DNA of 64,000 nucleotides from NCBI GenBank assembly GCA_016867315.1, contig VGJV01000001.1:194649-258648 (forward strand), given 5' to 3'. A program made the position numbers and the translations under genes. The first letter of the stretch is position 1, and each line of letters starts with the position of its first letter. The notes below the pieces were generated by a model that was given only the letters and a program-made list of their open reading frames with translations, ran no database searches and was not told the DNA's origin. Positions 11,967-32,158 of the stretch are shown piece after piece. Source of the DNA: Candidatus Liptonbacteria bacterium. GTDB taxonomy: Bacteria; Patescibacteriota; Minisyncoccia; UBA6257; 2-01-FULL-56-20.

Positions 11967-14315
11967 TTAGGGGGTTGTAGCCCGATAAAATCGAGCAGGT
12001 GTGTTGGTTGTTAATGAGTCGGTGAATTGAACCGAGCCATTCATGTTTGCAAGCAGGGCAGTGGTGGTCCAGTCCACGAGATTTGATGAGGATTGTACCG
12101 TGTAGGTGTATCCTTGAGGTCCCCTGAGTTGGAGAATGGGCGTTCCATTTGTGAGTGTGCCTGTAAGGGAAAGCGAGAATGATTCTCGCAGTCCGCGGAA
12201 ACCAATTGCGACATTGGTGATGGTTACGCTTGAGCGGGCGTCCGAGAATGGATCGAGCCGGAAGCCCAACATGCGAATACCGTTTGTGGCGGTCTCGGGA
12301 ATCGGGAAAGAGTGCTTCTGTAATCCCGGAAGTGTTACTCTTTCGTCAAGCAATCCTATCACGTTTGTTCCCCAATAGATCGAAAGCAAACTCTCCGCTC
12401 TCTTTTCGCTTGTAAATGAAGCTTCGAAGGAGAGGAAGTTTATGACATTCGTTATCTCTATGGGTTTTGCAACCCATGCTGGTGAAGCAGTCGTGAGATG
12501 CATTCCTGTGCCGATGAGTTCCTTAATTCCTGTCGAACTTTGGATTAGGGATGTATCATTACCCCATTCAAATGTTGGGTTTGCGAACATGGGCGTCGTT
12601 TCGTTTGGGAGGGGTACGCAGGGGATATCCGACTTCCCTAATAGCATTGGTGATTTGTTGCCAGGAGGATATTGGTTCAATGCCTTTTTCCATCCTCCAG
12701 CTTCCTGACTTAAAGGAAAACCGAATCCCCTTGCGTCAGACCACTCCGGTTCTCTGATAGTGCGCTTGTAGAAGTCCACGGGCCAGTGATGACTACTCAC
12801 TATTGTTCCACATGTAGCACCTGCAATGCCTGCCACGGCAGAGTAGAATATCTGAACTAAATTTATGTTGTCATCTAGTCCAGTAACATCCACGTTGTAC
12901 GCCCCTTCAATGTATCCTTCCGTAGCAGAAAATATTTCACCACTTGTTTCAAGATCGTGAGCAAAATAATAATCTGACCAATCAGCCCGTTTCCCATACG
13001 TAGTCCTCCACTCATTATTAAGACCCATGAATGGGTCTAAAAAAGTGAGGTGAATTTTCACTTCGGATGAGAGGGAGGATTTTATAACATCCGAGGCCGT
13101 CTGTATTAAGGGCGCTCCTGCGCTGTAGGCAATTAAATGGACATTTTCCCACTTATTCATGAGAAGGCAGTCGCCGAGTATCACTCCTTCATCTCTAGAA
13201 TTGCGAATTGCTGTTGTTGGACTTGCTACCCAAGCTTTCTCTATCCACCTATAGGCGCAAACTTGCCAATTGTTAGCACCGCTTTTTCTCAGATAAGAGG
13301 TAATTTCATTGGTTATGGAATCTAGCCATGGGGAATCTGGAGGAGAGAAGGGACTTAGTAGTCGGTTAAGCCATCCATGTGTTACCACAATGAGGCCATC
13401 TTTCCCCGGGAGTTTCTCGGGGCAGTCGCCATACGTGGGTCGGATTGCTTGTGTTTGCTCCACTGTCCGCAGTTCCTCAGCAGAAATGCTGCGAGCGCGA
13501 TTCATCTCGAATACTCGGATGAATTCCGAGGCAGTGGCGAATGTGTCTGAGGGAGCTTGAATTGGATTTGATTTCGATCTGATTTCGGCGACAATGCCGA
13601 ATCTTGAGCGTAGCCAATAGAAGGTTCGTTGGTATTCCGTGGCAACACGCACAAATATTCCGTTGTCCTCGAAATCCATTTGAATTTCTTGTTCAGTGAG
13701 TTCGTTTACACGTAGTGCTTCGCCGGAATTTAATCCGGGTTGGGCAAGCGTGCCAAACGCATCGGCTTTGCTTGTGCGTTTCGAGATGATCCGAAGAGAG
13801 AGTCCAATCGGTTGATTAGGCTCATCTTGATTCAAAATCATTCTCACGTCGTATTGTGTTTCTGATTTCCATGCATCTCCGAATTTGATTGTTTCCGGAA
13901 AATCCACAATGGGGTTTACAAACGGTACGGAGTTGGAGCTCAACTTCGGATTGTAGAACCCGAAGAGCTGGCGACCTATGCCCGGAGTTTGAGCGATATA
14001 AAGCCAGGATTTCGAATTGTCGGCTGGATTTATTCTTCGTTCTGCGAGGGTAGCGCCAGGAATCGGAGTATTGCCGTCACTCACGGCTACGTAATCAAGT
14101 TGTAGGAGATTCGTAGGGCCCGAGGAGAAGTCCCAATGCTGGGGGCCTCCGGCGGTGCCTAATTTTCCCGCTACCGATACCTCGTTCGTGCTTGCATACG
14201 CGCGGGCATATTCTCCGATTTCACGGAATATGTCCTTAGAGGTGATGGTGATTTGCCCGTGTGCGGAAACAATTGTACCGACGATTGCGAGTAGTATCTG
14301 GAGTTTTCTTTTCAT
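11967..14315 (-). CDS. secreted alpha/beta-hydrolase (lipase/esterase-like) with C-terminal beta-sandwich sorting-like domain
   Basis: Signal peptide 'MKRKLQILLAIVGTIVSAHG'; central 'LIVVTHGW...VHLIAYSAGAPL' (a lipase-like A/GxSxG nucleophile elbow); C-terminal 'YTYTVQSSSNLVDWTT...RFYRATTP'. Confidence 0.45.
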   Translation of the reverse strand: MKRKLQILLAIVGTIVSAHGQITITSKDIFREIGEYARAYASTNEVSVAGKLGTAGGPQHWDFSSGPTNLLQLDYVAVSDGNTPIPGATLAERRINPADNSKSWLYIAQTPGIGRQLFGFYNPKLSSNSVPFVNPIVDFPETIKFGDAWKSETQYDVRMILNQDEPNQPIGLSLRIISKRTSKADAFGTLAQPGLNSGEALRVNELTEQEIQMDFEDNGIFVRVATEYQRTFYWLRSRFGIVAEIRSKSNPIQAPSDTFATASEFIRVFEMNRARSISAEELRTVEQTQAIRPTYGDCPEKLPGKDGLIVVTHGWLNRLLSPFSPPDSPWLDSITNEITSYLRKSGANNWQVCAYRWIEKAWVASPTTAIRNSRDEGVILGDCLLMNKWENVHLIAYSAGAPLIQTASDVIKSSLSSEVKIHLTFLDPFMGLNNEWRTTYGKRADWSDYYFAHDLETSGEIFSATEGYIEGAYNVDVTGLDDNINLVQIFYSAVAGIAGATCGTIVSSHHWPVDFYKRTIREPEWSDARGFGFPLSQEAGGWKKALNQYPPGNKSPMLLGKSDIPCVPLPNETTPMFANPTFEWGNDTSLIQSSTGIKELIGTGMHLTTASPAWVAKPIEITNVINFLSFEASFTSEKRAESLLSIYWGTNVIGLLDERVTLPGLQKHSFPIPETATNGIRMLGFRLDPFSDARSSVTITNVAIGFRGLRESFSLSLTGTLTNGTPILQLRGPQGYTYTVQSSSNLVDWTTTALLANMNGSVQFTDSLTTNTPARFYRATTP

Positions 14316-14514
14316 AACATTCAGAGCAATCTTTTTGAGTTTTAAATTTGTTGGTTAACCCTATTTGGAGCAGGGTTTATCTCTATAAGCAGAATACAAT
14401 GGAATTAAATTAGGTATCAAAATGTAAGCGGCCCTCCTTTGAGAAGATCTCTAGGGAGGGCCTGCTTATTTTCTGCTTTTGCTGCACTCGATTAAGGGTT
14501 TTCGGTTGGGGAGG

Positions 14515-15423
14515 TTAGTTCGGATACATCACTGATTGCACTGTGACTGTGATGGTGTTGGTTCCAAGGTTGTGGAAGGTAAACGCGTTTCCGATCACAT
14601 CTCTTTCCGCGCGGGCGGGCAGTTTTTCACTGCGCCCATTTGGAAAGAAAACGGCGACTTCGTCTGAATCGGTGGTGAGGACAATTCGACTGCTTCGATC
14701 GTCCACTTCCACTATGTCAGACTGGCCTTGCGGATCGATGGTTATTTCCTTCTTTCCCCTCAGTCCTACGCGGATCACGGTATTCGTGCTGCTGCCACCC
14801 ACGGTCCCTGCTCCTCCGCTTGTTCCTGATGCTGTATTTGTGGAAACTGTCGCCGTTTGACCGTTGATGCTCAACGAAAAGCGATTGTCGTTCACAAATA
14901 CGGTTGCGCCAGGTGTGCCCTGCACGGTGTAACTCACGTTTCCTGGTCCGGGACCTGGGATAACGGTCGGAGCGCTCGTGCTTCCGGGAGGCGGCGGGAT
15001 TGCCGCGGGTGGAGCCATATAGGTTGGTGCTGCTGAAGCTGGCGACGGAGTCGCGAGTTTCATGATAGCTGCCACAACGACGATGGTTCCCAGGATGGCG
15101 ATGAGCACCCATCCCCATGGAGGCATGACAGGAGTCGAGTTCGAAGGCGGCGCAGATGGTGTGTTGGGCATCACTGCTACCACAGCCGCAGGACCTGCGA
15201 CGGTGATTCCAAGCGCTGCAATTTGTACCATTGCATCGGCGTGATTTGCTGCGTTGATAGTGCCGCTCACGGGGGCGCCAGCCGAGTTCGTACCAGTGTA
15301 TGAGAAGGTATGCATAGCATTCAGAGTTTCGGACGTTTTGTTAACAAACAGTATGTAAAAGTGCTCTTTCCTTGTGAGCACCCGGTTTGGGAGGTTACCC
15401 CAAGGATTGGCATATATTAGCAT
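14515..15423 (-). CDS. hypothetical membrane-anchored protein (operon gene 4 of 4)
   Basis: TM segment 'WGWVLIAILGTIVVVAAIM' followed by a Pro-rich linker and a beta-rich domain; no domain recognised. Confidence 0.4.
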   Translation of the reverse strand: MLIYANPWGNLPNRVLTRKEHFYILFVNKTSETLNAMHTFSYTGTNSAGAPVSGTINAANHADAMVQIAALGITVAGPAAVVAVMPNTPSAPPSNSTPVMPPWGWVLIAILGTIVVVAAIMKLATPSPASAAPTYMAPPAAIPPPPGSTSAPTVIPGPGPGNVSYTVQGTPGATVFVNDNRFSLSINGQTATVSTNTASGTSGGAGTVGGSSTNTVIRVGLRGKKEITIDPQGQSDIVEVDDRSSRIVLTTDSDEVAVFFPNGRSEKLPARAERDVIGNAFTFHNLGTNTITVTVQSVMYPN

Positions 15424-15580
15424 ACTTCTCCTTTTAAGTCAATATCCCTTCGGCAAGCTCAGGGCAAGCCTAGGAGCATTGAAACGTAAGGGTTCGTGCG
15501 GATTATGTGTATAAAAAGGCAATGGCTTCTTCAGATTTTTCCAAAGAAGCCATTGTTTGAATTCGACTTCGCTACACTCG

Positions 15581-16510
15581 TTACTGGAATTGGATTCGGA
15601 TGATCACCGGTGTGGAGCCTGGGTTGTACCATCGCATACCGGTCGGGAGGTCCCTATCGGTTGAGCGATGGAGTGGGCCATCCTCTTGCGGAGCAGCCCA
15701 ACCCGTGGGAAAGTATTTCTGTACGCCTACGTTTCCATCCGGCTGTGCGTAGAATCCTGTTGCATCAGGTGGAGCCGCAAGCGTCTCCGTCCAATACCCA
15801 GGATGCACCGCCACCGCCGTCCACTTCGTTCCAGGATCCATCCTCCTCGTTAAGCTTCCGGTTGAATCCGGTCGCAGAACGATTGGTTCCACTCGGCCGA
15901 TGTTCTGGAACTTTGCATTGATCTTCCCCGGTCCTCCGAAGCACAGGATTACAGTGAATAGAATGGCGATGACCACCATCCCCGTCACCATTCCTGGTTT
16001 TCGGATTGTATGGAAGAATCCTGCAGCTCCAACCGATAGAATGATGACTGGTGTAAGCAGCCAGCTATTCGTGATCGGCACCAGCGCGAGATAGATCGAA
16101 GCTCCCAGACTTATCGCATAGGCTGTCGCTACCCACATCCACGCCTTAGTCAACAATCTCTTGCCGAGATCGAAGAACGAAAGCGCAGGAAGGAGGAGGG
16201 CATCTCGCAGTCTCACGATGTAGAGCATCAAGCCGAGGAGGCTTGATGCAAAGAACGCGACTGCGAGCCAGGCAATAAGTGTTCGCTGATCGAGGAGGGC
16301 CAGGGAAAAGATGGTGCCGAGATATGCCACCGCAAACCAGATAAACCTTTCGGCGTATCGGTTCGCGAGGAAGTTCGCTCGATCCCATCCTGCTTCTGCG
16401 ATGTCGATTGTGTCTCCGAACCTCATCGCGACTGGAGATCCCGGGTTACAGACTGTCGGGATCAATTCGCGAAGGAGTTGGAACAGGTGATTAATGAATG
16501 TTTGGTTCAT
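15581..16510 (-). CDS. hypothetical polytopic membrane protein (operon gene 3; start taken at internal Met, MNQTF)
   Basis: About five hydrophobic helices then a soluble C-terminal domain. The 4-nt overlap with the upstream gene suggests translational coupling. Confidence 0.4.
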   Translation of the reverse strand: MNQTFINHLFQLLRELIPTVCNPGSPVAMRFGDTIDIAEAGWDRANFLANRYAERFIWFAVAYLGTIFSLALLDQRTLIAWLAVAFFASSLLGLMLYIVRLRDALLLPALSFFDLGKRLLTKAWMWVATAYAISLGASIYLALVPITNSWLLTPVIILSVGAAGFFHTIRKPGMVTGMVVIAILFTVILCFGGPGKINAKFQNIGRVEPIVLRPDSTGSLTRRMDPGTKWTAVAVHPGYWTETLAAPPDATGFYAQPDGNVGVQKYFPTGWAAPQEDGPLHRSTDRDLPTGMRWYNPGSTPVIIRIQFQ

Positions 16511-17136
16511 CGTCGCACCGCTCCTTCCTGGGCCCAGAGGTGAGCTTTGAGGTTTTGCATCCCCGGATGCGCTCGTGTGCAAACGGCATCGACCCCGGGT
16601 TTCGCCCAGCTTCCCGCTTGTTGCGCTTTCGCTGCAACAAACGCGGCGCCCTGAGTAAACATGTCGTTGTGATGTGTCATGAGTTCCGCGAGGAACTCTT
16701 TGCCGGTGGGATCTGCGCGAAGAATGCGTTCAAGGCGGAGGAGTTTGTCTTTCCCTCCTTGTCCTGACCCATCTTTGCCTCCGGCAGTGACTCGTTTCAA
16801 GAGCTTTTCGATGGTATTCGCCATGTAGGGTTTCCCATCGATTGTGACGATGCCGTGTTTGGCATCTCGAAGCAGCTTGAGGATGTGACAGGTTTTATCT
16901 GTGAACCGATTGGCGACCCAGCCCAGATCATCCATTAAGGCTTCCGGTTCTTCCGGTTGCAGCCTTCTATGGAGTTCATGGCTCAAGCCGACGCCTAGCT
17001 TTTTCAGCTTTGAAGCGCCGGTGAGGTCGATTCGTTCTCCTGTCTCATGTGCGAGTACTCCCACTGCGAATTCCACTACGCTTTCTCCTGCTCCTTTAAG
17101 CAGCCCTTTTAGGCCACTCCAGATTTGATGCATCAT
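16507..17136 (-). CDS. hypothetical protein (operon gene 2; start at MMHQIW)
   Basis: Soluble, Gly/Lys-rich; no motif recognised. Confidence 0.4.
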   Translation of the reverse strand: MMHQIWSGLKGLLKGAGESVVEFAVGVLAHETGERIDLTGASKLKKLGVGLSHELHRRLQPEEPEALMDDLGWVANRFTDKTCHILKLLRDAKHGIVTIDGKPYMANTIEKLLKRVTAGGKDGSGQGGKDKLLRLERILRADPTGKEFLAELMTHHNDMFTQGAAFVAAKAQQAGSWAKPGVDAVCTRAHPGMQNLKAHLWAQEGAVRR

Positions 17137-17161
17137 AATTTTATTTTCAGATTGTTGAGGT

Positions 17162-17935
17162 TTAGATTGCGGCCGGGAGTATAGTGTGTTTTTGCAACTG
17201 TTTACCCGACCCCACTTGCACTTCGACATACCTTTCCTTTTCAGTGTTTGGAATCGTCACTTTAAGGGTTTTGGTGCCGTCGACGCCCGTGGTGAAGCTG
17301 CTGATTTTACCGCCATTAATGAATTTCCCGCGCCATCCAGGAAGAGGATTTCCGTGTTCATCGTCATATACGTAGACGATAATCTCGTAATTTCCTTCCG
17401 TTCCTACGATGTCCCACTCCACTTTCCCTGCGGATTTATGCGGAGTGTGATGGGCGGCGGCAATTTTCTTTTCGGCTTCAGCGATGTCTGCTTTGGATCG
17501 TGCGGCTTTTGCGAGGTGATCTTGTTTAACTGCTTCGACCTCCTCAGGACTTGCCGTCGTTCCCAACTTCGCTGCTGCGTGATCCGCTTTGGCTTTTTGC
17601 AACTTCGCCTCGGCGACCCGCGCTTCTTTTTCTTCTAGAAGCTCGGGTTTAGGAGGAGCAGGCGTGACGATTTTTCGACCCCACGTCATTCCTCCTACAC
17701 TCACACGGATGGGATACGCGGACCCAGCGTTCATAGAGGGACTGTCCCACGTCACTTTCACATTCCCGTTGGTGGGGATGCTTTGTGGGGCGCCTGTGTT
17801 GAACGAGATATCCACATGATTCGGAAGTTGCCCTCCTGGCCAACCTGTACCTAAGAGCTCGATTACTACTTGTGCGATGTAGTTACCGGTCGCGAGTTTT
17901 TGGGGAGTGCGAATCTCCACATTTAATCTAGGCAT
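17162..17935 (-). CDS. hypothetical protein with two beta-rich domains separated by a Lys/Ala/Glu-rich helical linker (operon gene 1)
   Basis: 257 aa; 'EEKEARVAEAKLQKAKADHAAAKL...' coiled-coil-like linker. Confidence 0.45.
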   Translation of the reverse strand: MPRLNVEIRTPQKLATGNYIAQVVIELLGTGWPGGQLPNHVDISFNTGAPQSIPTNGNVKVTWDSPSMNAGSAYPIRVSVGGMTWGRKIVTPAPPKPELLEEKEARVAEAKLQKAKADHAAAKLGTTASPEEVEAVKQDHLAKAARSKADIAEAEKKIAAAHHTPHKSAGKVEWDIVGTEGNYEIIVYVYDDEHGNPLPGWRGKFINGGKISSFTTGVDGTKTLKVTIPNTEKERYVEVQVGSGKQLQKHTILPAAI

Positions 17936-18175: not shown

Positions 18176-19450
18176 ATGCCTCTTTCGAAACGGCAACTTA
18201 TCATTATTGGAGTAGCTTTTGTGCTTGTCGTCGGCATCGGAGCTCTTTTTGTGTTCGGGGGCATGAAAAAGAAACTTCCCGAGGTGAGTTTGGTGGTGTG
18301 GGGGACGGAGAGTCCGGCCGTGTTCGAGCATCTCACTAAGCCGTACGAGAAGGTCCGCCGCAATGTGAAAATTACTTATGTAGAACTTTTGCCGGATCGA
18401 TATGAAGCCGCAATTCTCGAGGCGCTCGCGTCGGGGCAGGGGCCGGATGTGTTTATGATCGGGAATCGTGATCTTTTGTCCCAGCGCAATAAGTTGTTGC
18501 CTGCGCCGGTTACTACGTTTTCCCTAGCTCAGGTGCGGGAATTTTTCCCGACAGTCGTCGAAGATGATTTCGTGGACGGGGGATATGTGTATGCGCTCCC
18601 GCTTTCGATCGATACTTTGGCGCTTTTCTATAATAAAGATCTTTTGGATCGTGCGGCGATCACCACTCCGCCTGCTACTTGGGAAGAGTTGCTTTCAATA
18701 ATCGAACCCCTTCGCTCGATTGGCAGTCGGGGAGAACTCGGACGTGCAGCCGCGGCATTGGGGGGCACGATGCGGACGATTGTCACCGCGCCGGATATTC
18801 TCCAGCTGCTTTTTATGCAAAATGGGGTGCGGATGCTTTCGGAAGGAGGAGCGTCTGCGGCATTTGCGTCGGGAGAAGAAGTAGGGAGGGCGGTAAATGC
18901 GCTTCGATATTATTTACAATTTGCGGATGCAGGCAGTGCGGTCTATACCTGGAATGAAAGCCAGTCTCCTTCGCGCGAAGCCTTTGCAGCAGGGAAGGCG
19001 GCGATGATTCTCGACTATCAATCCATTTTGGGAGAAATGCGACGGCAGAGCCCGTTCTTGCGGATCGGAGTCGCGCCTGCGCCACAGTTAACTGCGGAGG
19101 CAATCGCGTTCCCGAAATATAAGGGGCTTACGGTATCGCGGCAGAGTTTCAAAGGAGATTGGGCATGGGATTTTGTGGTGCATGCGGCCACGAATCCCGG
19201 GGATTATCTGGTGGCTACCGGAGCGCCGCCGGCCTTGCGCAATGAAATTGCGCGGCGCTTGGGAGATCCGGAGCTCGACGTGTTCGCCCGGCAAGCTCTC
19301 ATTGCTCGATCGTGGCGGATGCCCGCGGAAAAAAATACAAACGCGATTTTTGATGAGATGCTGCGTACAGTGCTTTTGGGACAGGTACAACCCCGTATTG
19401 CGCTCGAGCGCGCGGAAGCAAAGGTGACGCAGTTATTGCAGGGCAGGTGA
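18176..19450 (+). CDS. extracellular solute-binding protein (ABC-transporter SBP family 1-like), orphan
   Basis: N-terminal signal anchor and 'LLPDRYEAAILEALASGQGPDVFMIGNRDL', typical of MalE-like SBPs. No permease or ATPase genes lie adjacent. Confidence 0.55.
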   Translation: MPLSKRQLIIIGVAFVLVVGIGALFVFGGMKKKLPEVSLVVWGTESPAVFEHLTKPYEKVRRNVKITYVELLPDRYEAAILEALASGQGPDVFMIGNRDLLSQRNKLLPAPVTTFSLAQVREFFPTVVEDDFVDGGYVYALPLSIDTLALFYNKDLLDRAAITTPPATWEELLSIIEPLRSIGSRGELGRAAAALGGTMRTIVTAPDILQLLFMQNGVRMLSEGGASAAFASGEEVGRAVNALRYYLQFADAGSAVYTWNESQSPSREAFAAGKAAMILDYQSILGEMRRQSPFLRIGVAPAPQLTAEAIAFPKYKGLTVSRQSFKGDWAWDFVVHAATNPGDYLVATGAPPALRNEIARRLGDPELDVFARQALIARSWRMPAEKNTNAIFDEMLRTVLLGQVQPRIALERAEAKVTQLLQGR

Positions 19451-19451
19451 T

Positions 19452-19479
19452 ACTTATAACTTATAACTTATGACTTATA
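19452..19479. repeat. 4 x heptamer tandem repeat ACTTATA(A/G) overlapping the start codon and -10-like boxes of paralog 1
   Basis: ACTTATAACTTATAACTTATGACTTATA. The ATG at 19470 lies inside unit 3, and TATAAC boxes lie 2 and 9 nt upstream. Confidence 0.6.
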
Positions 19480-20084
19480 ACGAGGGGCGTACGAAAAGAC
19501 TCGCGATTGTCATATTAGGATTGGCCTTTTTTTCACTTGCGTACTTCGCCCACGCGCTCGATCTGAATTATCTCGGGGCGGATGCGGTGAGGGAGCAGGT
19601 GGCGGCGCATCCGAGTTGGAAAACACCTGGGGTTTATGAGGCCACGCTTGGAGGAGATTCGGTGGATTTTATTCTGACGGATTCGCCTCCGGCGCAACCC
19701 AAGTCTTCGGCGCAGACAGGCACGAATAGAGGCTTAGGATTTCCTTACTGGCCTTCGGAACTATTACCACTATTGCCTTGCACAGGAACCAACTGCGTTA
19801 ATTTTTGCCAGCTCCTTACCTTTTTCCAGCGGTTGATTTATTTTGGAATGACTTTGGCGGTGGAAATCATTGCGCCGGTGTTTCTTATCTGGGGGATGTT
19901 CATGATTCTCATATCAGCGGGATCGAGTGAACGACTCGGTCAAGGCAAGACGATACTCACTACTACTATAGTAGGGGTAGTCCTTGCGCTTGGAGCGTTT
20001 CTTATCGTGAGCACTTTGCTTTGGCTTTTGGGGAACCCAGCAAGTGGAGGAGTGAGTTGGCCTAATGTCGCCTGCGTGATTTAA
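19470..20084 (+). CDS. paralog 1 of secreted two-TM small-protein family (VirB2/TrbC-pilin-like topology), with extended N-terminal domain
   Basis: Signal peptide, then ~110-aa Cys-containing region, then TM1-'SAGSSERLGQGKT'-TM2 shared with the three downstream paralogs. Confidence 0.5.
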   Translation: MTYNEGRTKRLAIVILGLAFFSLAYFAHALDLNYLGADAVREQVAAHPSWKTPGVYEATLGGDSVDFILTDSPPAQPKSSAQTGTNRGLGFPYWPSELLPLLPCTGTNCVNFCQLLTFFQRLIYFGMTLAVEIIAPVFLIWGMFMILISAGSSERLGQGKTILTTTIVGVVLALGAFLIVSTLLWLLGNPASGGVSWPNVACVI

Positions 20085-20091
20085 TTACCGT

Positions 20092-20442
20092 ATGTTCAAG
20101 AAAGCCCTACTTTGTTTGTTGCTGGTGTTGGGGTGGGTATCTATGGTTTCAGCCGATACGGGCAAACCGCCGAGCCGTACGTCGGTAAACTTGGTCAATC
20201 CTCTGGGGACGGATAATTTACAGGTAGCTTTGGAGCGGGCGGTCCCGCTTCTTATCGCGATTGCTGCACCTCTCGCCACCATTATGGTGCTTTATGGTGC
20301 GTTTCTCTTGATGACTTCGGCGGGTAATGAAGAGAAGATCAGTAAGGGAAGGGCGGCTATTTTTTGGGCGGCAGTTGGTTTTTTGGGAGTGCTCGTGGCG
20401 GGGTCTATCGTACCGGTGATTCGGAGCGTGTTCGGTAATTAG
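20092..20442 (+). CDS. paralog 2 of secreted two-TM small-protein family (VirB2/TrbC-like)
   Basis: SP 'MFKKALLCLLLVLGWVSMVSA', TM1, loop 'TSAGNEEKISKGRA', TM2 'AIFWAAVGFLGVLVAGSIV'. Confidence 0.55.
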   Translation: MFKKALLCLLLVLGWVSMVSADTGKPPSRTSVNLVNPLGTDNLQVALERAVPLLIAIAAPLATIMVLYGAFLLMTSAGNEEKISKGRAAIFWAAVGFLGVLVAGSIVPVIRSVFGN

Positions 20443-20458
20443 AATGCGGACTTTGTCT

Positions 20459-20743
20459 TTAGTGTAAATGCTTTTTTGCAAACGCGAACCCGGAACCTTG
20501 TTTTAAATATTTCTCGAAGGCGAGCGCTTTTGATTTGTCTTGAAAAGCGCAGTGCCATACCAGCTCAAAAGGCGCTTTGGTGCTTGAATAAGGTGAAGAA
20601 CCAGCATTGTGTTCTATAAGGCGCTTTTGCACATTTTCCGTGCAGCCTGTGTAATAGCTTCCGTCCTTAAGACTTTTCAGGATATAAACGCAATGCATAG
20701 AGAAATTATACTGCCCTACTTCGCTAAAGCTACGAAGGGCCAC
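20459..20743 (-). CDS. GIY-YIG nuclease superfamily protein (YhbQ/UPF0213-like)
   Basis: 'VYILKSLKDGSYYTGCTENVQKRLIEHN' is a canonical GIY-YIG motif; 94 aa; inserted antisense between paralogs 2 and 3. Confidence 0.7.
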   Translation of the reverse strand: MALRSFSEVGQYNFSMHCVYILKSLKDGSYYTGCTENVQKRLIEHNAGSSPYSSTKAPFELVWHCAFQDKSKALAFEKYLKQGSGFAFAKKHLH

Positions 20744-20860
20744 TGCTTCGCTTAACTTCAGTAGTATATATAGCTACTTGCACTGCGAAGCTTTAGCGAA
20801 GTAGTGGTTGTGGAAATCTGGAGTTGAACAATTTAGAAAAGAAGAGATATACTGAACTTA

Positions 20861-21337
20861 ATGAAAATATACCGGGGGTTGGGGGTATTTGGCGGGCTTA
20901 TTTTAGGAGGGCTGCCCTTTTTTGCATTTGCACAAACCGTCCAGCCTATCACCGTAAGGAACATTCAGGGGGTGGAGGGGCTTATCTATAAGGTGGTGGA
21001 TTGGGTATTTCTTTTCCTGATCGCGATCTCGATCCTCATGATCCTCGTCGCTGCATATTACTATATGACGGCGCAGGGGAATTCGGAGAAGGTTTCGAAG
21101 GGGCATAAAACGATTACCTGGGCGGCGGTGGGGATTATGGTAGCGCTGCTTGCGAAGGGGGTACCTGCGATTGTCAGGTCTATTTTTGCTGCTGATGGAG
21201 TTCCAGCTAATCAAGCCGGGGTGCAGACTGCTCCCCGATCCTCACCTTCTTCCCTCCCCCCTGCTCAACTCCCCGGAACGAGGCCCGCATTACCTCCTGC
21301 AGGATCATTGACTCCCGGGGCGCCGGCGGTGCAGTGA
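20861..21337 (+). CDS. paralog 3 of secreted two-TM small-protein family, with Pro-rich C-terminal tail
   Basis: SP, TM1, 'TAQGNSEKVSKGHK', TM2 'ITWAAVGIMVALLAKG', then a P/A/S-rich 45-aa tail. Confidence 0.55.
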   Translation: MKIYRGLGVFGGLILGGLPFFAFAQTVQPITVRNIQGVEGLIYKVVDWVFLFLIAISILMILVAAYYYMTAQGNSEKVSKGHKTITWAAVGIMVALLAKGVPAIVRSIFAADGVPANQAGVQTAPRSSPSSLPPAQLPGTRPALPPAGSLTPGAPAVQ

Positions 21338-21429
21338 GTTGAGAGAAGAGAACTCAGTATGCTACACTTCTTACGACGTATTTTCTCGAAAGGTCGAAGT
21401 GACGTGAATGAGTAAGAGAGACTAAACAC

Positions 21430-21810
21430 ATGGCGAAATTTACGAAATGGGCGGCTCCAGTGGTAAGCACGTTGCTCCCAATGATCACAATGGCACAGGG
21501 CTCGAACCCACGGCGGCCAGCGGGAGGATCTGAAGCTCCGGCTCCCATTACTACTTTGGGCGGAGCTTTCGATATTCTCTGTAACGTTTTGGGATGGATC
21601 TTCATCCTTCTTATCGTACTCGCGGTATTCTTCGTGATCGTGGCGGCATTCCGCTACTTGATGGCGGGAGGGGAGCCGGAGAAGGTGGGAGCTGCAAACC
21701 ACACGTTGATCTATGCAGCGGTCGCAGTGGTCGTTGCAATCATCGCGCGCGGTATCCCTATTATTATCGCGAACTTCTTCAACGTGGGAGTTGTAGGAAC
21801 AGTTTGTTAA
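21430..21810 (+). CDS. paralog 4 of secreted two-TM small-protein family
   Basis: SP 'MAKFTKWAAPVVSTLLPMITMAQG', TM1, 'MAGGEPEKVGAANH', TM2. Confidence 0.55.
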   Translation: MAKFTKWAAPVVSTLLPMITMAQGSNPRRPAGGSEAPAPITTLGGAFDILCNVLGWIFILLIVLAVFFVIVAAFRYLMAGGEPEKVGAANHTLIYAAVAVVVAIIARGIPIIIANFFNVGVVGTVC

Positions 21811-21830
21811 TCTTGACCTTTGGCTGATAA

Positions 21831-21860
21831 AAACCCTCCGTCATGGAGGGTTTTTGTTTA
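21831..21860 (+). terminator. intrinsic terminator after the paralog array
   Basis: AAACCCTCC-GTCAT-GGAGGG followed by TTTTTGTTT. Confidence 0.6.
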
Positions 21861-21896: not shown

Positions 21897-21979
21897 GCCG
21901 GGATGGTGAAATGGGAGACACGCAGCGCTTAGAACGCTGTATCCGCAAGGATATGGAGGTTCGATTCCTCCTCCCGGCA
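21897..21979 (+). tRNA. tRNA-Leu (anticodon TAG), type II with long variable arm
   Basis: Acceptor GCCGGGA/TCCCGGC, anticodon stem CAGCG/CGCTG with loop CTTAGAA, variable arm ATATCC-GCAA-GGATAT, T-arm GGAGG-TTCGATT-CCTCC, discriminator A. Confidence 0.85.
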
Positions 21980-22038
21980 CAAAAGGGGTACGGAGCGGGA
22001 CCCACAGTTGGTTATACTAGTTCAATGAATGTTTTAGG

Positions 22039-23058
22039 GTGGCGACTTTTATATGGAGTGGGTTTTTTGGCGCTTTTTTTTTGGTTCTTGGGATTGAGTT
22101 GGTGGCCCCTGGAGTTTTTACCATTACTCCCGTGGGAGAGTTGCCGCTTGAGGACTATGTAGCCATGGAAGCGGACCTGGTGCAGGTGCTCCAACAAGAA
22201 GGAGTGCGCCCTGCTCTTTTGGAACTCATTACCGCTGCTCAAGCCGACTCTCGGGTGATGAATTCGTGTCATTCTCTTGCGCATACTTTAGGGAGAGCTG
22301 CGCTCCGTTATGTGGGGGATTTTGGAGAGGCCTTCATGTATCAAGATGAGTTTTGCAATTCTGGTTTTATTCACGGCATACTCGAAGAACGATTTAGTGA
22401 TTCTTTGAATGTAGAAAAGGATATGAGAATGGCCTGCGAAAGCTCTTCGCCCAATATGTTTGAATATTGGCAGTGTCACCATGGAGTAGGACACGGGCTC
22501 ATGTTCTATTCGGAAAATGATCTTCCTGCGTCGCTCGATCTTTGTGATGCCTATTCAGTAGAAATGGCTCGATCTGCATGCAGGAACGGAGTTTTTATGG
22601 AGAACTTTAATGTAGATGGAAAGCTGCATCTATCTCAATATCTCAATCCTCACGACCCATTCGTTCCTTGTGCATCACTTCCTTATCAGGAAGAATGTTA
22701 TCTCTATGCTCCCATTTATATTTTAAGTTTGAATCGTGGAGCTTTGGAGATGGTAGTGCAATTTTGTGATCGTGCTCCTTCTCCTTTCGATGTAATGTGT
22801 GCGAGAGGAGCAGGATTCCAAATTTTGAAGCGTAATGTGCAGGAGGCCGCTTTTGTCCAGGAGTTGTGTATGCGCGCTTTTACTCAGGATCAAAGGAGTG
22901 GTTGTATCGAAGGGATGGTTAATTTTTATGTGCATCACTACGGAGGAAATACCAAGGAAGCCTTACATCTTTGTCGGGAAGTGCGCAGTCAATATTCTGC
23001 TCTCTGTCGCGCTCATGTGGATTTTCTGCGAGAGTACTACTCCTTAGAAGCTATCTAA
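22039..23058 (+). CDS. Cys/His-rich membrane-anchored hypothetical protein (N-terminus ambiguous around a T10 homopolymer)
   Basis: Repeated C..G/HG motifs (CHSLAHTLG, CNSGFIHG, CHHGVGHG, CRNGVF). Alternative in-frame N-termini exist in two frames either side of the T-run at about 22072-22082. Confidence 0.45.
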   Translation: MATFIWSGFFGAFFLVLGIELVAPGVFTITPVGELPLEDYVAMEADLVQVLQQEGVRPALLELITAAQADSRVMNSCHSLAHTLGRAALRYVGDFGEAFMYQDEFCNSGFIHGILEERFSDSLNVEKDMRMACESSSPNMFEYWQCHHGVGHGLMFYSENDLPASLDLCDAYSVEMARSACRNGVFMENFNVDGKLHLSQYLNPHDPFVPCASLPYQEECYLYAPIYILSLNRGALEMVVQFCDRAPSPFDVMCARGAGFQILKRNVQEAAFVQELCMRAFTQDQRSGCIEGMVNFYVHHYGGNTKEALHLCREVRSQYSALCRAHVDFLREYYSLEAI

Positions 23059-29516: not shown

Positions 29517-29630
29517 GGGTTTAAGTCTAGGGGAGTAGCTTTTAGTGTCAATCAGAGAGGAGGTGTGTACAAAAGTAGCGTGTATCAGTGTGATATACTA
29601 AAAGCAATAAATATTTCCGTGGGAAGCTTT

Positions 29631-30953
29631 ATGGAATATCTAAGCAGTAAGAATAAAAGTCTAAGAATTTTTACCTGCGGCGTGCTGGGAGTGATGCTCC
29701 TCCTCGCAAATTTTTCTTCGGTTTGGGCTCAAACTAAGGCGGAAATTGTAGATTGTTTCGATTACTACAAGTTCAATAGCGTGCAGGCGGATATTTCTTC
29801 CGCAAGTGCAGTATTGCCGGCGGGAGTGGAAGCCTCTTTTACCGCTACTTTCCATAATGAAAACCCTTATCCGATTGTAGGAGGTTCGCTTTATGTGAAA
29901 GTTTTTAAAAAACAAGCAGATGCTTCGGCGGGGCATCGCAATGCGGATTTGGTAGTGGATCAGTTTTTTGCGTTGGAAGGCATCGCACTCGATGCTCGCG
30001 CTACGCTTAAGAAGAGCTTCGCCTGGAAAGTGCCTGCACATGCCGAGACAGGAGAGTACTCTATCGCGAGTTTTTTTGTAACCAATAAAAAATTCAATTT
30101 ATTGGGACTTTCATTTACGGACGACGTGATTGGGAATTCTTTCGATTTTAAAATTGAGGGGACTACGGGTGGGAGTATTGTTTTCGATAAGAATGCGGTG
30201 ACTATGAACGGAGACGCGTACCGGTTTGCAGCTTTCCCTCCCAGATTTGGAAGTGAAAACATCGAAGTCCAAACAATTATCACAAACACTACTCGGAAAA
30301 CCCAGGAAGTGCCGGTTACATGGAAGCTTTACTACTGGGATGGGCTGGATTCGGAACGTTTGCTCACCGAGAAAAAAGAGATGTATGTGGTGCCAGCCGG
30401 GGGTACGCAGCCCGTCTCTTTCGTGATTACGCAGAACGAGCACTCTGTCTATTATTTAGTAGGAGAATTAGTTTATGAAGATACAAAATCAGTGATTGGG
30501 ATGCGTGCTGTGAGAACAGGGGTAAATAATACGCGGATCAATTTCCCTAGTCTTACGAAATATCCTTTGCGAGAGGGCGAAGCAAACTCAATTTTTTCTT
30601 GTGCGCATGCCACTGTGCAAGAAGATCCCTCCGCTTCCCTTAAGCTCAGTCTTAAAGACTCCTCCGGATATGTGATTCACTCTTCGGAGTATCGCGGGGC
30701 GATTACGGGAGATATGATGGGTCTGAAAAGCAATTTTGTGCCCGCTAAGCATTACGATAATGTAACGCTTTACGCCGAACTTTACCGCGGCTCGCAGCTT
30801 GTAGATTCGGCGGTGATGCCATACCAATGCGATGCAATTAATCCGAAATACTGTACGCCCCGGCCATATGTGCAACTATTACTATGGATACTTATTGCGG
30901 GGGTCATCGCGCTCGGGGTTGGGTTGATGGTAATTAATAGACGAAACGCATGA
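29631..30953 (+). CDS. secreted hypothetical protein with C-terminal TM anchor (start at MEYLSS)
   Basis: Signal peptide 'LRIFTCGVLGVMLLLANFSSVWAQ', a beta-rich body, and a C-terminal 'LLLWILIAGVIALGVGLMVINRRNA' anchor. Confidence 0.5.
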   Translation: MEYLSSKNKSLRIFTCGVLGVMLLLANFSSVWAQTKAEIVDCFDYYKFNSVQADISSASAVLPAGVEASFTATFHNENPYPIVGGSLYVKVFKKQADASAGHRNADLVVDQFFALEGIALDARATLKKSFAWKVPAHAETGEYSIASFFVTNKKFNLLGLSFTDDVIGNSFDFKIEGTTGGSIVFDKNAVTMNGDAYRFAAFPPRFGSENIEVQTIITNTTRKTQEVPVTWKLYYWDGLDSERLLTEKKEMYVVPAGGTQPVSFVITQNEHSVYYLVGELVYEDTKSVIGMRAVRTGVNNTRINFPSLTKYPLREGEANSIFSCAHATVQEDPSASLKLSLKDSSGYVIHSSEYRGAITGDMMGLKSNFVPAKHYDNVTLYAELYRGSQLVDSAVMPYQCDAINPKYCTPRPYVQLLLWILIAGVIALGVGLMVINRRNA

Positions 30954-32158
30954 ACTACAAACTCAGAATAATTTTGCCTATTTTGTTTGCTGCGATAGGG
31001 ATCAGTATTTCTGGGAACCATATTGCTGAGGCAAAGGATGCAATATGGAGTAAGACTTTTTCGAATAATTTTTATTACTACTCCGAGCGTTTCCCGATTG
31101 AGTCAGGAGGAAAAGGATTAGGGAATCCTAATGTGACGATACGCTACCATGCGTTGATCAAAAATGCGGCGGATGGAAAGTATGTGGCGGACGGGAGCAC
31201 GATTCCTGTTGGCACTAAGCTTTTGTTTGAACGCGTCTCTTCCGTGGACGAGGATATTACATGGAATGGAACAGGATATTCGAGTGATACTCCCTACGGA
31301 CATTTCATTCCAAATGCCGGAGGGCCCGTTGTTGATTGTAATCCAGGAGAGAAAATGGGAAGTGTCACATCACCCAATGGCTCTAAATTTGATCCTTACG
31401 TAGTATTTTCAGCTCATCCTCCGTCCCATTCAATTTCTCATGCGGGCACTGCTGTGCTTTCTTGTAATGCCGATAACACTGAGTGCACGGTAACTTCGCC
31501 GGGTACTATTCAGACTACGTTTAATATTCGAGATACAACAGGCAAGTTTTATTATCGCTATTACGACTATAGAAGCGGAAAAGTGGAGTCCAATAATTTT
31601 AAACTAATCCCGGGATGTTATGGCAACAATATTCCTATGTCCCTCACTCCTACAAAGAATGGCAATCCCGGCGCTCCCTTTATTATGAACATCCCTTCTC
31701 AGGCCATCTCTTATAAATTTAATGCAGTTCAGCCCAATAGAGCCCCAGCGAAACCTGTTTGTTCTACGAGTCCCGCGAATGGAACCGTAGATACTCAATA
31801 TACTATTAAAGCCCAGGCTTCGGATCCCGATGGAGACGGGCTTCGCTATGAATTTGCATTTGAGGGGAATACGCAGGCCACTGTGTACGTTCCCAGCACG
31901 GGATATGCACGGAGCGGGGCCGAGCAATCTATCCTGAAACAGTGGGCTTCGGAGGGAACGAAGAAAGTGCAGGTGCGAGCGATTGATGCAAGCGGTGCGC
32001 AATCAGAGTGGGGAGCATGCGATGTGTCGGTGGGAGCACGCGCGCGGCCTAAGGTGCAGCTTTTTATAGGGCCCTTGGGGAAGTGCGAGGCCGGGAAGGA
32101 AGTAACCGTTTTGAAGAATGAAAAAGTTTCCTTATGTTGGAAGGTGAATGTAGAATAA
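30950..32158 (+). CDS. secreted hypothetical protein
   Basis: Signal peptide 'MNYKLRIILPILFAAIGISISG'; the ATGA overlap with the upstream gene suggests translational coupling. Confidence 0.5.
   Translation: MNYKLRIILPILFAAIGISISGNHIAEAKDAIWSKTFSNNFYYYSERFPIESGGKGLGNPNVTIRYHALIKNAADGKYVADGSTIPVGTKLLFERVSSVDEDITWNGTGYSSDTPYGHFIPNAGGPVVDCNPGEKMGSVTSPNGSKFDPYVVFSAHPPSHSISHAGTAVLSCNADNTECTVTSPGTIQTTFNIRDTTGKFYYRYYDYRSGKVESNNFKLIPGCYGNNIPMSLTPTKNGNPGAPFIMNIPSQAISYKFNAVQPNRAPAKPVCSTSPANGTVDTQYTIKAQASDPDGDGLRYEFAFEGNTQATVYVPSTGYARSGAEQSILKQWASEGTKKVQVRAIDASGAQSEWGACDVSVGARARPKVQLFIGPLGKCEAGKEVTVLKNEKVSLCWKVNVE

What the first reader, a model, noticed from the sequence alone, without database searches (positions are those of the whole stretch)
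19470..21810. Tandem array of four paralogous secreted two-TM mini-proteins (VirB2/TrbC-pilin-like topology) with an embedded GIY-YIG gene, next to an orphan solute-binding protein
Four consecutive same-strand genes (19470, 20092, 20861, 21430) encode proteins with a cleavable signal peptide, a hydrophobic helix, a short conserved polar loop ([ST]AG[NSE].E[KR][IVL][GS]K/QG) and a second hydrophobic helix. This is the architecture of conjugative T-pilins (TrbC/VirB2), although no T4SS ATPase or channel gene is nearby. The paralogs have diverged extensions: a 110-aa Cys-containing N-domain on copy 1 and a Pro-rich tail on copy 3. This suggests a surface-exposed, diversifying family such as filament subunits, bacteriocin/holin-like peptides or receptor mimics. 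They lie immediately downstream of an SBP that lacks any ABC permease/ATPase partner, and end in a strong terminator before tRNA-Leu. This gene family and arrangement may be undescribed
Basis: partly seen in the sequence, partly recalled or inferred. Interest (0 to 1): 0.75.

Follow-up and report, generated by a model that had tools for sequence, protein, structure and literature searches.

The report
SBP-led VirB2-like pilin gene array
The four small genes are a tandem array of VirB2/TrbC-like "T4SS pilin" (Pfam PF18895) subunits of the kind already described in ultrasmall Patescibacteria; the one feature I did not find reported is that in this lineage the array always follows a membrane-anchored sugar-binding-type protein that has no transporter partner nearby.

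Summary
Four same-strand ORFs (19470, 20092, 20861, 21430) each encode a Sec-type signal peptide, two hydrophobic helices and a short conserved charged loop. A GIY-YIG gene lies on the opposite strand between copies 2 and 3. A strong terminator and tRNA-Leu follow.

The family is not undescribed. Copies 2-4 pass the gathering threshold of Pfam PF18895 (T4SS_pilin). Copy 1 belongs through its orthologues (hhalign 99.6%). The window comes from a Liptonbacteria-like Patescibacterium from Lake Tanganyika. Published work already reports 441 such VirB2-like arrays of 2-11 genes, about 25% identical to each other, some interrupted by a non-pilin gene, and an essential array in Southlakia.

What I add:
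- The upstream solute-binding protein (SBP) is a conserved operon partner. In 75 of 75 usable species-representative loci it is followed, at a median gap of 9 nt, by 1-7 pilin genes.
- The pilin model gave no hit anywhere else in those loci.
- The array members are positional orthologues rather than a fast-diversifying set.
- No VirB4, VirB6 or ABC ATPase lies nearby.
- GIY-YIG is a lineage-specific insertion.

Most likely these are T4SS-type pilin subunits assembled by machinery encoded elsewhere. The SBP may act as a surface ligand-binding partner.

Verdict: a new member of a known kind. Interest is moderate to low, except for the SBP coupling.

The parts
18176..19450 (+). Lead gene of the module: a 424-aa MalE-like solute-binding protein (SBP_bac_1/SBP_bac_8). 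It has an N-terminal transmembrane anchor and no lipobox Cys. No ABC permease or ATPase partner lies nearby.
   Evidence: Pfam 75-76 bits. PDB sequence matches to sugar/maltose-binding proteins, 4qrz E 2.8e-14 over the full length. 523 homologues at E<=1e-10, mostly Parcubacteria/Liptonbacteria. Followed by pilin genes in 75 of 75 usable loci. No ORF with ABC-ATPase motifs in the window or in 97 loci.
19453..19480 (+). Four tandem heptamers CTTATRA spanning the ATG of copy 1. An SD-like AGGTGA (19445-19450) sits 19 nt upstream of the ATG.
   Evidence: Read directly from the sequence. The only such tandem in the window, and invariant in 8 same-species contigs.
19470..20084 (+). Copy 1 (204 aa), the 'lead' pilin-like subunit. 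It has a signal peptide, a variable disordered spacer, the Cys motif C104/C109/C113, a helical hairpin and a C-terminal C202.
   Evidence: PF18895 is sub-threshold alone (15.9 bits). Its orthologues occupy the first array position in 80 of 81 loci, and 38 of 42 of them hit PF18895. hhalign of this subfamily against the other array members gives 99.6%, E 1e-23. AF2 hairpin at 112-147/153-188. Four conserved Cys.
20092..20442 (+). Copy 2 (116 aa): canonical PF18895 pilin-like subunit. It starts 7 nt after copy 1.
   Evidence: PF18895 35.5 bits against a cutoff of 26.6. Orthologues at 66% and 49% identity. AF2 pLDDT 78.8, hairpin 43-74/80-114. Best hit is the second array gene in 44 of 78 loci.
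20459..20743 (-). Stand-alone GIY-YIG nuclease-domain gene (94 aa, or 79 aa from the internal ATG). It is an insertion into the copy 2-copy 3 spacer, not a functional part of the array.
   Evidence: Pfam GIY-YIG 61.1 bits. Absent from the orthologous array in L009, where copies 2 and 3 are 20 nt apart. Single copy in the window. GIY-YIG ORFs occur at other positions in or near the array in L027 and L089, and several kb from the SBP in L079 and L090.
20716..20804 (.). 25-nt inverted repeat (88% complementary, arms 20716-20740 and 20780-20804) at the 5' end of, and upstream of, the GIY-YIG gene.
   Evidence: the repeat finder I1.
20861..21337 (+). Copy 3 (158 aa): PF18895 pilin-like subunit with a 47-aa Pro-rich C-terminal (extracytoplasmic) tail.
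   Evidence: PF18895 33.7 bits. c2-c3 E 3e-12 and c3-c4 E 7e-17.
21430..21810 (+). Copy 4 (126 aa): the 'last' PF18895 subunit. It has a Cys before helix 1 (C51) and a C-terminal Cys (C126).
   Evidence: PF18895 31.0 bits. Best hit is the last array gene in 56 of 77 loci. The Cys pair is conserved in orthologues P0128, P0132 and P0138. Identical to NCBI FJY98_01210, Candidatus Liptonbacteria (P0127).
21826..21860 (+). Intrinsic terminator closing the operon: a CCCTCC/GGAGGG core extended by A/U pairs, followed by a T-run.
   Evidence: RNA fold dG -25.3 kcal/mol, z -4.07, 0 of 200 shuffles as stable.
21897..21980 (+). tRNA-Leu(TAG): the downstream boundary.
   Evidence: ARAGORN.

Best explanation
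The locus is one operon-like module of a Patescibacterium (class Paceibacteria, Liptonbacteria-like). A membrane-anchored MalE-type solute-binding protein is followed by four differentiated paralogues of the VirB2/TrbC-superfamily 'T4SS_pilin' family (PF18895).

Proposed mechanism:
1. Each protein is exported by Sec and its signal peptide is cut by signal peptidase I. This is inferred from the -3/-1 sites.
2. The mature protein sits in the membrane as a helical hairpin, with both ends outside and the conserved charged loop (T-[AS]-[GA]-G-[DNS]-[PE]-E-[KR]...[AG]-[KR]) on the cytoplasmic side. This is inferred from topology and homology to VirB2.
3. Cys pairs flanking the hairpin in copies 1 and 4 probably clamp the N- and C-terminal ends by disulfides. 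This is an inference; it would be functionally reminiscent of head-to-tail cyclisation in TrbC/VirB2.
4. The subunits are extracted and polymerised into a short pilus or stalk by a VirB4-dependent, monoderm-type T4SS encoded elsewhere in the genome. This is inferred from the literature: 80% of Patescibacteria assemblies carry VirB4, and the pilin array of Southlakia is essential. It is not shown for this genome.
5. The four copies are conserved positional orthologues (a lead 4-Cys subunit, middle subunits, and a terminal Cys-pair subunit). They therefore more likely play distinct structural roles (major, minor, tip or base) than serve antigenic variation.
6. The co-transcribed SBP probably acts as a surface glycan- or ligand-binding partner (adhesin, sensor or capture protein) rather than as part of a local ABC importer.

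The GIY-YIG gene is a selfish or incidental insertion.
For: - Family membership. PF18895 scores of 35.5, 33.7 and 31.0 bits against a cutoff of 26.6. Weak hits to the NCBIfam Mbov_0395 pilin-like conjugal transfer model. 100 of 101 sampled array members in relatives hit PF18895 and 31 of 101 also hit PF04956 TrbC/VirB2, best E 1.6e-9. Copy 1's subfamily against the rest: hhalign 99.6%. Array profile against genuine Agrobacterium-type VirB2/TrbC: in-register alignment over 80 columns, pairwise E 2.5e-4, probability 43%.
- Topology and fold.
- Organism and context. Patescibacteria contigs, housekeeping flanks (gyrA, rpsO, pnp, recA).
- Module conservation. 75 of 75 loci with usable downstream DNA have 1-7 pilin ORFs directly after the SBP. 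All 289 HMM hits lie there, and none lie in 440 kb upstream or 91 kb beyond, or on the minus strand anywhere in the loci. The linkage persists where gyrA is absent (L108 and at least 6 other loci).
- Positional orthology.
- Literature. VirB2-like arrays of 2-11 genes, mean identity 25%, sometimes interrupted by a non-pilin gene. A pilin gene lies near virB4 in only 1135 of 1948 assemblies. VirB4 is present in 2417 of 3035 assemblies (PMC12102498). Essential pilin array inside the Southlakia T4SS cluster (PMC10633639; PMC12857230).
Against: - No VirB4, VirB6, VirB3 or VirD4 gene in the 64-kb window or about 8-10 kb beyond either end. None appeared among the large ORFs within +-7 kb of the SBP in 80 related species. 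The link to a T4SS therefore rests on family homology and literature, not on this genome.
- The four window proteins do not hit PF04956 (TrbC) themselves.
- No pilus of this family has been visualised in any Patescibacterium.
- Polypeptides with 2-17 fused hairpin domains exist in the family. That is awkward for a simple one-hairpin-per-subunit filament unless they are processed.
- The strict SBP coupling is not explained by any known T4SS.
Confidence: 0.7

Rival explanations
1. The SBP plus the hairpin proteins form a self-contained surface device that does not depend on a T4SS. The 2-TM subunits would form a membrane platform or short stalk that anchors, displays or couples the orphan SBP, analogous to the archaeal 'bindosome'. 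Alternatively they would form an unconventional uptake channel fed by the SBP.
For: - Strict SBP-array coupling in 75 of 75 loci, with a median 9-nt gap and several -3 overlaps.
- The coupling survives changes of flanking genes.
- No ABC permease or ATPase and no VirB4 within reach in any locus.
- Many invariant aromatic residues in the SBP suggest a real ligand pocket.
- Fused multi-hairpin polypeptides exist.
Against: - Clear homology to the PF18895/TrbC pilin family.
- In other Patescibacteria classes the same family sits inside T4SS clusters and is essential there.
- There is no energy source in the module.
- Synteny alone does not show physical interaction.
- A solitary pilin without an SBP exists at an equivalent site in another lineage.
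Confidence: 0.2
2. The four genes encode secreted class II bacteriocin-like or holin-like membrane-active peptides.
For: Small size, a leader peptide, two hydrophobic helices and tandem paralogues.
Against: - No bacteriocin or holin Pfam/NCBIfam hit.
- The leaders are Sec/AxA type, not double-glycine.
- No immunity gene, ABC exporter, lysin or phage genes nearby.
- The module is fixed in a housekeeping context in at least 514 species-level genomes, with conserved positional orthologues.
Confidence: 0.02
3. They are unrelated generic hairpin membrane proteins (for example ATP-synthase-c-like), or chance hydrophobic ORFs.
For: The top Foldseek hit is E. coli subunit c (E 0.98, TM 0.47/0.63).
Against: - No ATP-synt_C Pfam hit, and no acidic residue in helix 2.
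- Orthologues are conserved across at least 80 species, and the HMM hits nothing off-array.
Confidence: 0.01

Closest known systems
VirB2-like pilin arrays of Patescibacteria (Pfam PF18895 T4SS_pilin). Examples: the essential six-pilin array in the Southlakia epibionticum T4SS cluster SEML1_0006-0019, and the 441 arrays catalogued by Quinonero-Coronel et al. 2025.
   Same: - Same Pfam family.
- Same architecture: signal peptide plus helical hairpin.
- Same tandem arrangement of paralogues that are about 25% identical, sometimes interrupted by a non-pilin gene.
- Same phylum and chromosomal location.
   Different: - Here the array is not in a T4SS cluster.
- It is led by an orphan MalE-like SBP and usually follows gyrA. 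I found this arrangement throughout Paceibacteria but not in the papers searched.
- The lead subunit has a 4-Cys signature.
Canonical conjugative T-pilins TrbC/VirB2 (PF04956; Agrobacterium VirB2, RP4 TrbC)
   Same: - A leader cut by signal peptidase I, two hydrophobic helices, a short loop and a small mature size.
- 31% of sampled array members in relatives hit PF04956.
- The profile-profile alignment is in register from the AxAQ cleavage site to the C-terminus.
   Different: - The window proteins themselves do not hit PF04956.
- The loop is about 7 residues longer and charged.
- No adjacent virB1/virB3/virB4, whereas the genuine VirB2 genes I fetched are flanked by virB1 and virB3.
- The host is a monoderm.
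- Cyclisation is unknown. Cys pairs may replace it (an inference).
Mycoplasma ICE 'Mbov_0395 family pilin-like conjugal transfer protein' (NCBIfam NF045849) of MPF_FATA-type systems
   Same: Sub-threshold but consistent HMM similarity for copies 2-4 (31.2, 26.6 and 24.9 bits). The host is also a monoderm, and the T4SS is of the class from which the Patescibacteria system is said to derive.
   Different: All scores are below the 40-bit cutoff. There is no ICE context, relaxase or coupling protein here.
Archaeal Ced/Ted conjugation-like pili (for example the Aeropyrum pernix pilus, PDB 8dfu)
   Same: VirB2-like helical hairpin. Rank-5 Foldseek hit with TM 0.47/0.63.
   Different: E 2.4, not significant. 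No CedA/CedB-like genes nearby.
Orphan or signalling SBPs linked to T4SS or pilus biology: pCF10 PrgZ, Agrobacterium ChvE, and the Sulfolobus bindosome (Bas). These are from my own knowledge and were not tested here.
   Same: An SBP without its own permease that functions with a conjugation/T4SS system or with pilin-like assembly factors.
   Different: PrgZ is a peptide-binding SBP_bac_5 protein. ChvE signals through VirA. Bas uses type IV (class III signal) pilins. None is encoded in an operon with VirB2-like pilins. The resemblance is a lead only.

Membership tests
Pfam PF18895 T4SS_pilin (Patescibacterial VirB2-like pilins) | HMM score at or above the gathering threshold (26.6 bits) | tested here: met
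   Copies 2, 3 and 4 score 35.5, 33.7 and 31.0 bits. Copy 1 scores only 15.9 bits on its own. However, 38 of 42 of its positional orthologues hit PF18895, and its subfamily aligns to the rest at hhalign 99.6%, E 1e-23.
Pfam PF18895 T4SS_pilin (Patescibacterial VirB2-like pilins) | Cleavable signal peptide, two hydrophobic helices and a short polar loop | tested here: met
   Hydropathy and -3/-1 sites. AF2 hairpins. Loop consensus over 277 members. Cleavage itself is inferred.
Patescibacterial VirB2-like pilin array (PMC12102498) | [quoted passage not shown] | tested here: met
   Four genes, 21-34% identical. GIY-YIG lies between copies 2 and 3.
Patescibacterial T4SS gene cluster | virB4, and usually virB6/virB3/trsD, within about 20 genes | tested here: not met
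   None in the window or about 8-10 kb beyond either end. None appeared in the 10 largest or Walker-A-bearing of 42 clusters of large ORFs within +-7 kb in 80 related loci; the other clusters were not scanned against Pfam. This is not strictly defining: only 1135 of 1948 assemblies have a pilin gene near virB4.
Patescibacterial T4SS gene cluster | virB4 present somewhere in the same genome | not testable with these tools
   Only the window and its immediate flanks could be read. The prior from the literature is 2417 of 3035 assemblies.
TrbC/VirB2 (PF04956) | HMM match, or profile homology to bona fide VirB2/TrbC | tested here: inconclusive
   No PF04956 hit for the four window proteins at E<=1. 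31 of 101 sampled array members and 6 of 42 lead subunits in relatives hit it. hhalign against 8 genuine VirB2/TrbC sequences: probability 42.6%, E 2.5e-4.
TrbC/VirB2 (PF04956) | Assembly into an extracellular pilus; head-to-tail cyclisation | not testable with these tools
   Needs microscopy and mass spectrometry.
F-type ATP synthase subunit c | ATP-synt_C HMM match and an essential carboxylate in helix 2 | tested here: not met
   No Pfam hit. No D or E in helix 2 of any copy. The Foldseek hit at E 0.98 is non-significant.
Class II bacteriocin / holin | Family HMM match; double-glycine leader or a phage-lysis/immunity context | tested here: not met
   No hits. Sec-type leaders. Housekeeping context.
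SBP-dependent ABC importer | SBP encoded with cognate permease(s) and an ABC ATPase | tested here: not met
   The SBP is present. There is no ORF with Walker A plus an LSGGQ-like signature in the window or in any of 97 loci. No BPD_transp or ABC_tran family in six Pfam-annotated neighbourhoods.
GIY-YIG nuclease domain (PF01541) | HMM score at or above the gathering threshold | tested here: met
   61.1 bits against 22.6. A stand-alone domain of 79-94 aa.

The most novel reading that the evidence does not exclude
In Paceibacteria the VirB2-like hairpin proteins have been recruited into a dedicated, SBP-led module that works apart from the T4SS gene cluster. A membrane-anchored glycan-binding SBP would be physically coupled to a filament or platform built from four or more differentiated VirB2-like subunits: a 4-Cys lead subunit, middle subunits and a Cys-clamped terminal subunit. 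The result would be a host-attachment or nutrient-capture organelle, a bacterial counterpart of the archaeal bindosome. This SBP-pilin coupling was not found in the literature I could search.
Probability: 0.2. Interest if true: 0.7.

Novelty: new member of a known kind. Interest (0 to 1): 0.35.

Why it matters
The array itself adds one more example to a catalogued class, so it changes little.

The useful output is the rule found here: in at least 75 Paceibacteria species an orphan, membrane-anchored MalE-like SBP is the invariant first gene of a VirB2-like pilin operon. The first and last positions of the array are held by conserved orthologues, and the linkage holds even where flanking genes differ.

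Patescibacteria are obligate epibionts. Their T4SS and its pilin array are the only T4SS components shown to be essential for growth (Southlakia), yet what the putative pilus does is unknown. A conserved ligand-binding partner gives a concrete handle on that question: what does the SBP bind, and does it sit on or next to the pilus? It also gives a marker for finding these arrays when they lie far from virB4.

Tried and rejected
- A profile search against PDB sequences gave nothing significant.
- The 782-aa ORF at 11967-14315 has a VirB4-like size, but it is a signal-peptide-bearing secreted protein with no P-loop or Pfam hit. Rejected as VirB4.
- Looking for VirB4 one step beyond each window end found FtsH and housekeeping genes on the left, and a type IV pilus (not T4SS) cluster on the right.
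- The phase-variation idea for the CTTATRA heptamers at the copy 1 start found no support: the repeat number is identical in 8 contigs.
- The hypervariation or antigenic-variation idea was rejected. Orthologues are 45-66% identical, there is one SNP in the array across 8 same-species contigs, and positions are orthologous.
- HMM drift was checked and excluded. The seed-only and iterated models both hit only ORFs directly downstream of the SBP.
- The supplementary files of PMC12102498 held as text contain no SBP or Pfam terms, nor the two assembly accessions searched (GCA_001818625 for L014, GCA_024654525 for L009).
- RK2 (BN000925) was not in the plasmid collection. Genuine VirB2/TrbC sequences were obtained by tblastn instead.


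Full report
**1. What is there**

The region holds five co-oriented genes on the + strand:
- A 424-aa solute-binding protein (SBP) at 18176-19450.
- Four small ORFs at 19470-20084 (204 aa), 20092-20442 (116 aa), 20861-21337 (158 aa) and 21430-21810 (126 aa).

The gaps are 19 nt (SBP to copy 1), 7 nt (copy 1 to 2), 418 nt (copy 2 to 3) and 92 nt (copy 3 to 4).

The 418-nt gap contains a GIY-YIG ORF on the minus strand (20459-20743; Pfam 61.1 bits against a cutoff of 22.6).

After copy 4 comes a hairpin at 21826-21858 with a T-run. Its dG is -25.3 kcal/mol, z is -4.07, and 0 of 200 shuffles fold as well. tRNA-Leu(TAG) follows at 21897-21980.

Each small protein has the following features:
- An N-terminal hydrophobic segment ending in a signal-peptidase-I-type -3/-1 site. 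For copy 4 this segment stays below the hydropathy cut-off used.
- Two strong hydrophobic helices separated by a short charged loop.
- AlphaFold2 models show a helical hairpin with pLDDT about 90 in the core (copy 2; copy 1).

Paralogy is significant for neighbouring pairs: c2-c3 E 3e-12, c3-c4 E 7e-17 and c1-c2 E 2e-4.

Three nuances apply:
- The long N-terminal region of copy 1 is predicted disordered, and its length varies among orthologues. Only a Cys motif and a C-terminal Cys are conserved.
- The GIY-YIG gene is on the opposite strand.
- Public gene calls truncate copy 2 to 99 aa, which removes its signal peptide.

**2. What it is**

Copies 2, 3 and 4 exceed the gathering threshold of Pfam PF18895, 'Type IV secretion system pilin' (35.5, 33.7 and 31.0 bits against 26.6). 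Copy 1 scores 15.9 bits. NCBIfam gives sub-threshold matches to the Mycoplasma ICE 'Mbov_0395 pilin-like conjugal transfer protein' model.

The window is a chromosomal piece of a Patescibacterium:
- Exact copies lie on Lake Tanganyika metagenome contigs of up to 290 kb.
- Copy 4 is identical to a protein of a 'Candidatus Liptonbacteria' MAG (P0127).
- The flanks are housekeeping genes: SHMT, folD, gyrA, xerC-like, rpsO, pnp, recA, ftsK and clpB.

A profile of the family finds 102,169 cluster representatives at E<=1e-3, so this is a very large known family.

The literature already describes this kind of locus:
- Quinonero-Coronel et al. 2025 searched 3,035 Patescibacteria genomes with PF18895 and PF04956.
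- A pilin gene lies near virB4 in only 1135 of 1948 assemblies.
- VirB4 occurs in 2417 of 3035 assemblies.
- Wang et al. 2023 showed that the pilin array inside the Southlakia T4SS cluster is essential.
- A 2025 T4SS review highlights these systems as the only monoderm T4SSs with VirB2-like pilins.

**3. Relation to canonical VirB2/TrbC**

None of the four window proteins hits PF04956. Among array members in related genomes, 31 of 101 do, with a best E of 1.6e-9. Six of 42 lead subunits also do.

I retrieved eight genuine VirB2/TrbC genes from conjugative MPF_T plasmids. Seven of the eight are flanked by a lytic transglycosylase/VirB1 gene and by virB3; for the eighth only virB3 is listed. The array profile aligns to them in register from the AxAQ cleavage site through both helices. 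The support is modest: hhalign probability 42.6%, pairwise E 2.5e-4.

Membership in PF18895 is therefore solid. Homology to classical T-pilins is plausible. Function as a pilus is untested.

**4. What is new here: the SBP is part of the module**

Orthologues of copy 2 (66% and 49% identical) sit in the same arrangement in other species: SBP, a copy-1-like gene, then three or more PF18895 genes. The same holds for distant SBP orthologues in Liptonbacteria, Jorgensenbacteria and others, where gyrA directly precedes the SBP.

I scanned species-representative genomes with an SBP alignment. There were at least 514 relatives, and 80 loci were kept. I then searched their six-frame ORFs with a pilin HMM built from window copies 2-4 and iterated. 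The results were:
- All 289 hits lie on the SBP strand within 5 kb downstream of the SBP.
- No hit lies in 440 kb upstream or 91 kb further downstream, and none is on the minus strand.
- 75 of 75 loci with at least 600 nt downstream have at least one hit. With the un-iterated seed model the figure is 71 of 75.
- Arrays have 1-7 genes, with a mode of 3.
- The median gap from the SBP stop to the first ORF is 9 nt, and several overlap by 4 nt.
- gyrA abuts the SBP in about 62 of 79 loci.
- The SBP-array linkage persists where gyrA is absent: six or more loci, plus L108, which has a different flank.

In the window itself a 6.7-kb, five-gene block on the minus strand (11967-17935) separates gyrA from the SBP.

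No ORF in the window or in any locus carries ABC-ATPase motifs. No ABC permease or ATPase family appears in six Pfam-annotated neighbourhoods. The 'orphan' status of the SBP is therefore a conserved feature.

The SBP has an N-terminal transmembrane anchor and no lipobox. It is related over its full length to sugar-binding SBPs (4qrz, E 2.8e-14). It has many invariant aromatic residues.

I found no paper that links an SBP to these arrays. That search covers open-access text only.

**5. Differentiated, not diversifying**

The best hits of the window copies in other species fall at matching array positions:
- Copy 1: the first array gene in 80 of 81 loci.
- Copy 4: the last in 56 of 77.
- Copy 2: the second in 44 of 78.

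The lead subfamily has four conserved cysteines (PC...C..C before helix 1, and W...C at the C-terminus). It is homologous to the other members at hhalign 99.6%. Copy-4-type proteins keep one Cys before helix 1 and a C-terminal Cys. Both positions are extracytoplasmic in the predicted topology, so a disulfide clamp across the hairpin ends is likely. This is an inference.

Orthologue identities are 45-66%, comparable to the SBP at 49-59%. Eight same-species contigs from different samples show a single SNP in the array, a nonsense change in one 2.6-kb contig. This argues against antigenic-variation-like diversification. It favours distinct structural roles for the subunits.

**6. The GIY-YIG gene**

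It is absent from the orthologous array of the nearest other species, where copies 2 and 3 are 20 nt apart. It is single-copy in the window. Related GIY-YIG ORFs sit at other positions in or near arrays in a few other loci. A 25-nt inverted repeat flanks its 5' end. I read it as a lineage-specific insertion that splits the operon. Promoter-like hexamers precede copies 3 and 4, but at chance frequency.

**7. Mechanism and rivals**

Best explanation (confidence about 0.7): these are Sec-exported hairpin subunits of the VirB2 superfamily, clipped by signal peptidase I. A VirB4-type T4SS encoded elsewhere would assemble them. The SBP would be a surface ligand-binding partner. The T4SS dependence is inferred, not shown. 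No T4SS core gene lies in the window, within about 8-10 kb of either end, or in the 10 largest or Walker-A-bearing of 42 clusters of large ORFs near the module in 80 species.

Main rival (about 0.2): the SBP plus hairpin proteins form a T4SS-independent, bindosome-like or uptake device. The strict coupling and the lack of any transporter or VirB4 nearby favour it. The family's placement inside essential T4SS clusters in other classes argues against it.

The bacteriocin/holin, ATP-synthase-c and chance readings are rejected.

**8. Verdict**

The claim of an undescribed family is wrong. The locus is a new member of a known kind. The SBP-led, gyrA-proximal arrangement, detached from any T4SS cluster and built of positional orthologues, is the only aspect that may be new. 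It deserves a targeted genome-wide check.

Noticed in passing
window 19445-19480: Four tandem CTTATRA heptamers span the start codon of copy 1. An SD-like AGGTGA sits an unusually long 19 nt upstream of the ATG. The repeat number is identical in 8 same-species contigs, so there is no sign of phase variation.
   Followed up: partly
L008:1611-2225 (equivalent to window 19845): One short contig from another Lake Tanganyika sample carries a G->T change that makes G126* in copy 1. It splits the N-terminal part from the hairpin. It could be a real null allele or an assembly error.
   Followed up: partly
window 11967-17935 (minus strand): A five-gene block lies between gyrA and the SBP, whereas gyrA abuts the SBP in most Paceibacteria. 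The block comprises a 782-aa secreted protein, a Pro/Thr-rich 266-302-aa protein with a precomputed T2SSF_N hit, a 5-6-TM protein, and two soluble proteins with no Pfam match. Two similar-sized minus-strand genes (212 and 228 aa) precede the SBP in L009, though homology was not tested. Function unknown.
   Followed up: partly
L107:637-9771 (just beyond the right end of the window, next to comFC at window 62397-63092): A complete type IV pilus cluster (pilM, pilB, pilT, pilC, an N_methyl pilin and a prepilin peptidase) lies immediately after the window. It is a T4P cluster, not a T4SS.
   Followed up: no
proteins P0149-P0153, P0160, P0004 (database hits): Many database polypeptides carry 2-17 tandem PF18895-like hairpin domains in one chain, for example P0153 with 1775 aa and 17 matched stretches. 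These may be fused or polyprotein pilin arrays, or the result of read-through or recoding. Their processing is unknown.
   Followed up: no
window 20092-20142: Public gene calls (JGI, Logan, ENA) start copy 2 at M18, giving 99 aa and deleting the signal peptide. The longer ORF matches the signal peptides of its orthologues.
   Followed up: yes
window 20716-20804: A 25-nt inverted repeat (88% complementary) overlaps the 5' end of the GIY-YIG gene. It may be a regulatory or mobility-related hairpin.
   Followed up: partly
window 22039-23058: A 339-aa membrane-anchored, Cys-rich protein (many conserved-looking C/H residues) directly follows tRNA-Leu. It has no Pfam match.
   Followed up: no
window 29565-34395: A run of three large secreted or anchored proteins (462, 402 and 753 aa). 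They have weak PKD, CARDB and Gly-rich-domain hits and are possibly surface adhesins.
   Followed up: no
L110:7341-7775 versus L108:7925-12019: Upstream of nusA-H+PPase-trigger factor, one lineage has a full SBP plus five-pilin module. Another has a solitary PF18895 gene without an SBP. This suggests loss or gain of the module at a fixed site.
   Followed up: no
P0128 versus window copy 4 (21430-21810): A close variant of copy 4, listed as a separate protein cluster, differs mainly in the exposed N-terminal mature segment (NPRRPAGGSEAPAPITTLG against KPMYPGGGSGTPAPVQTLG). The hairpin is nearly invariant.
   Followed up: no
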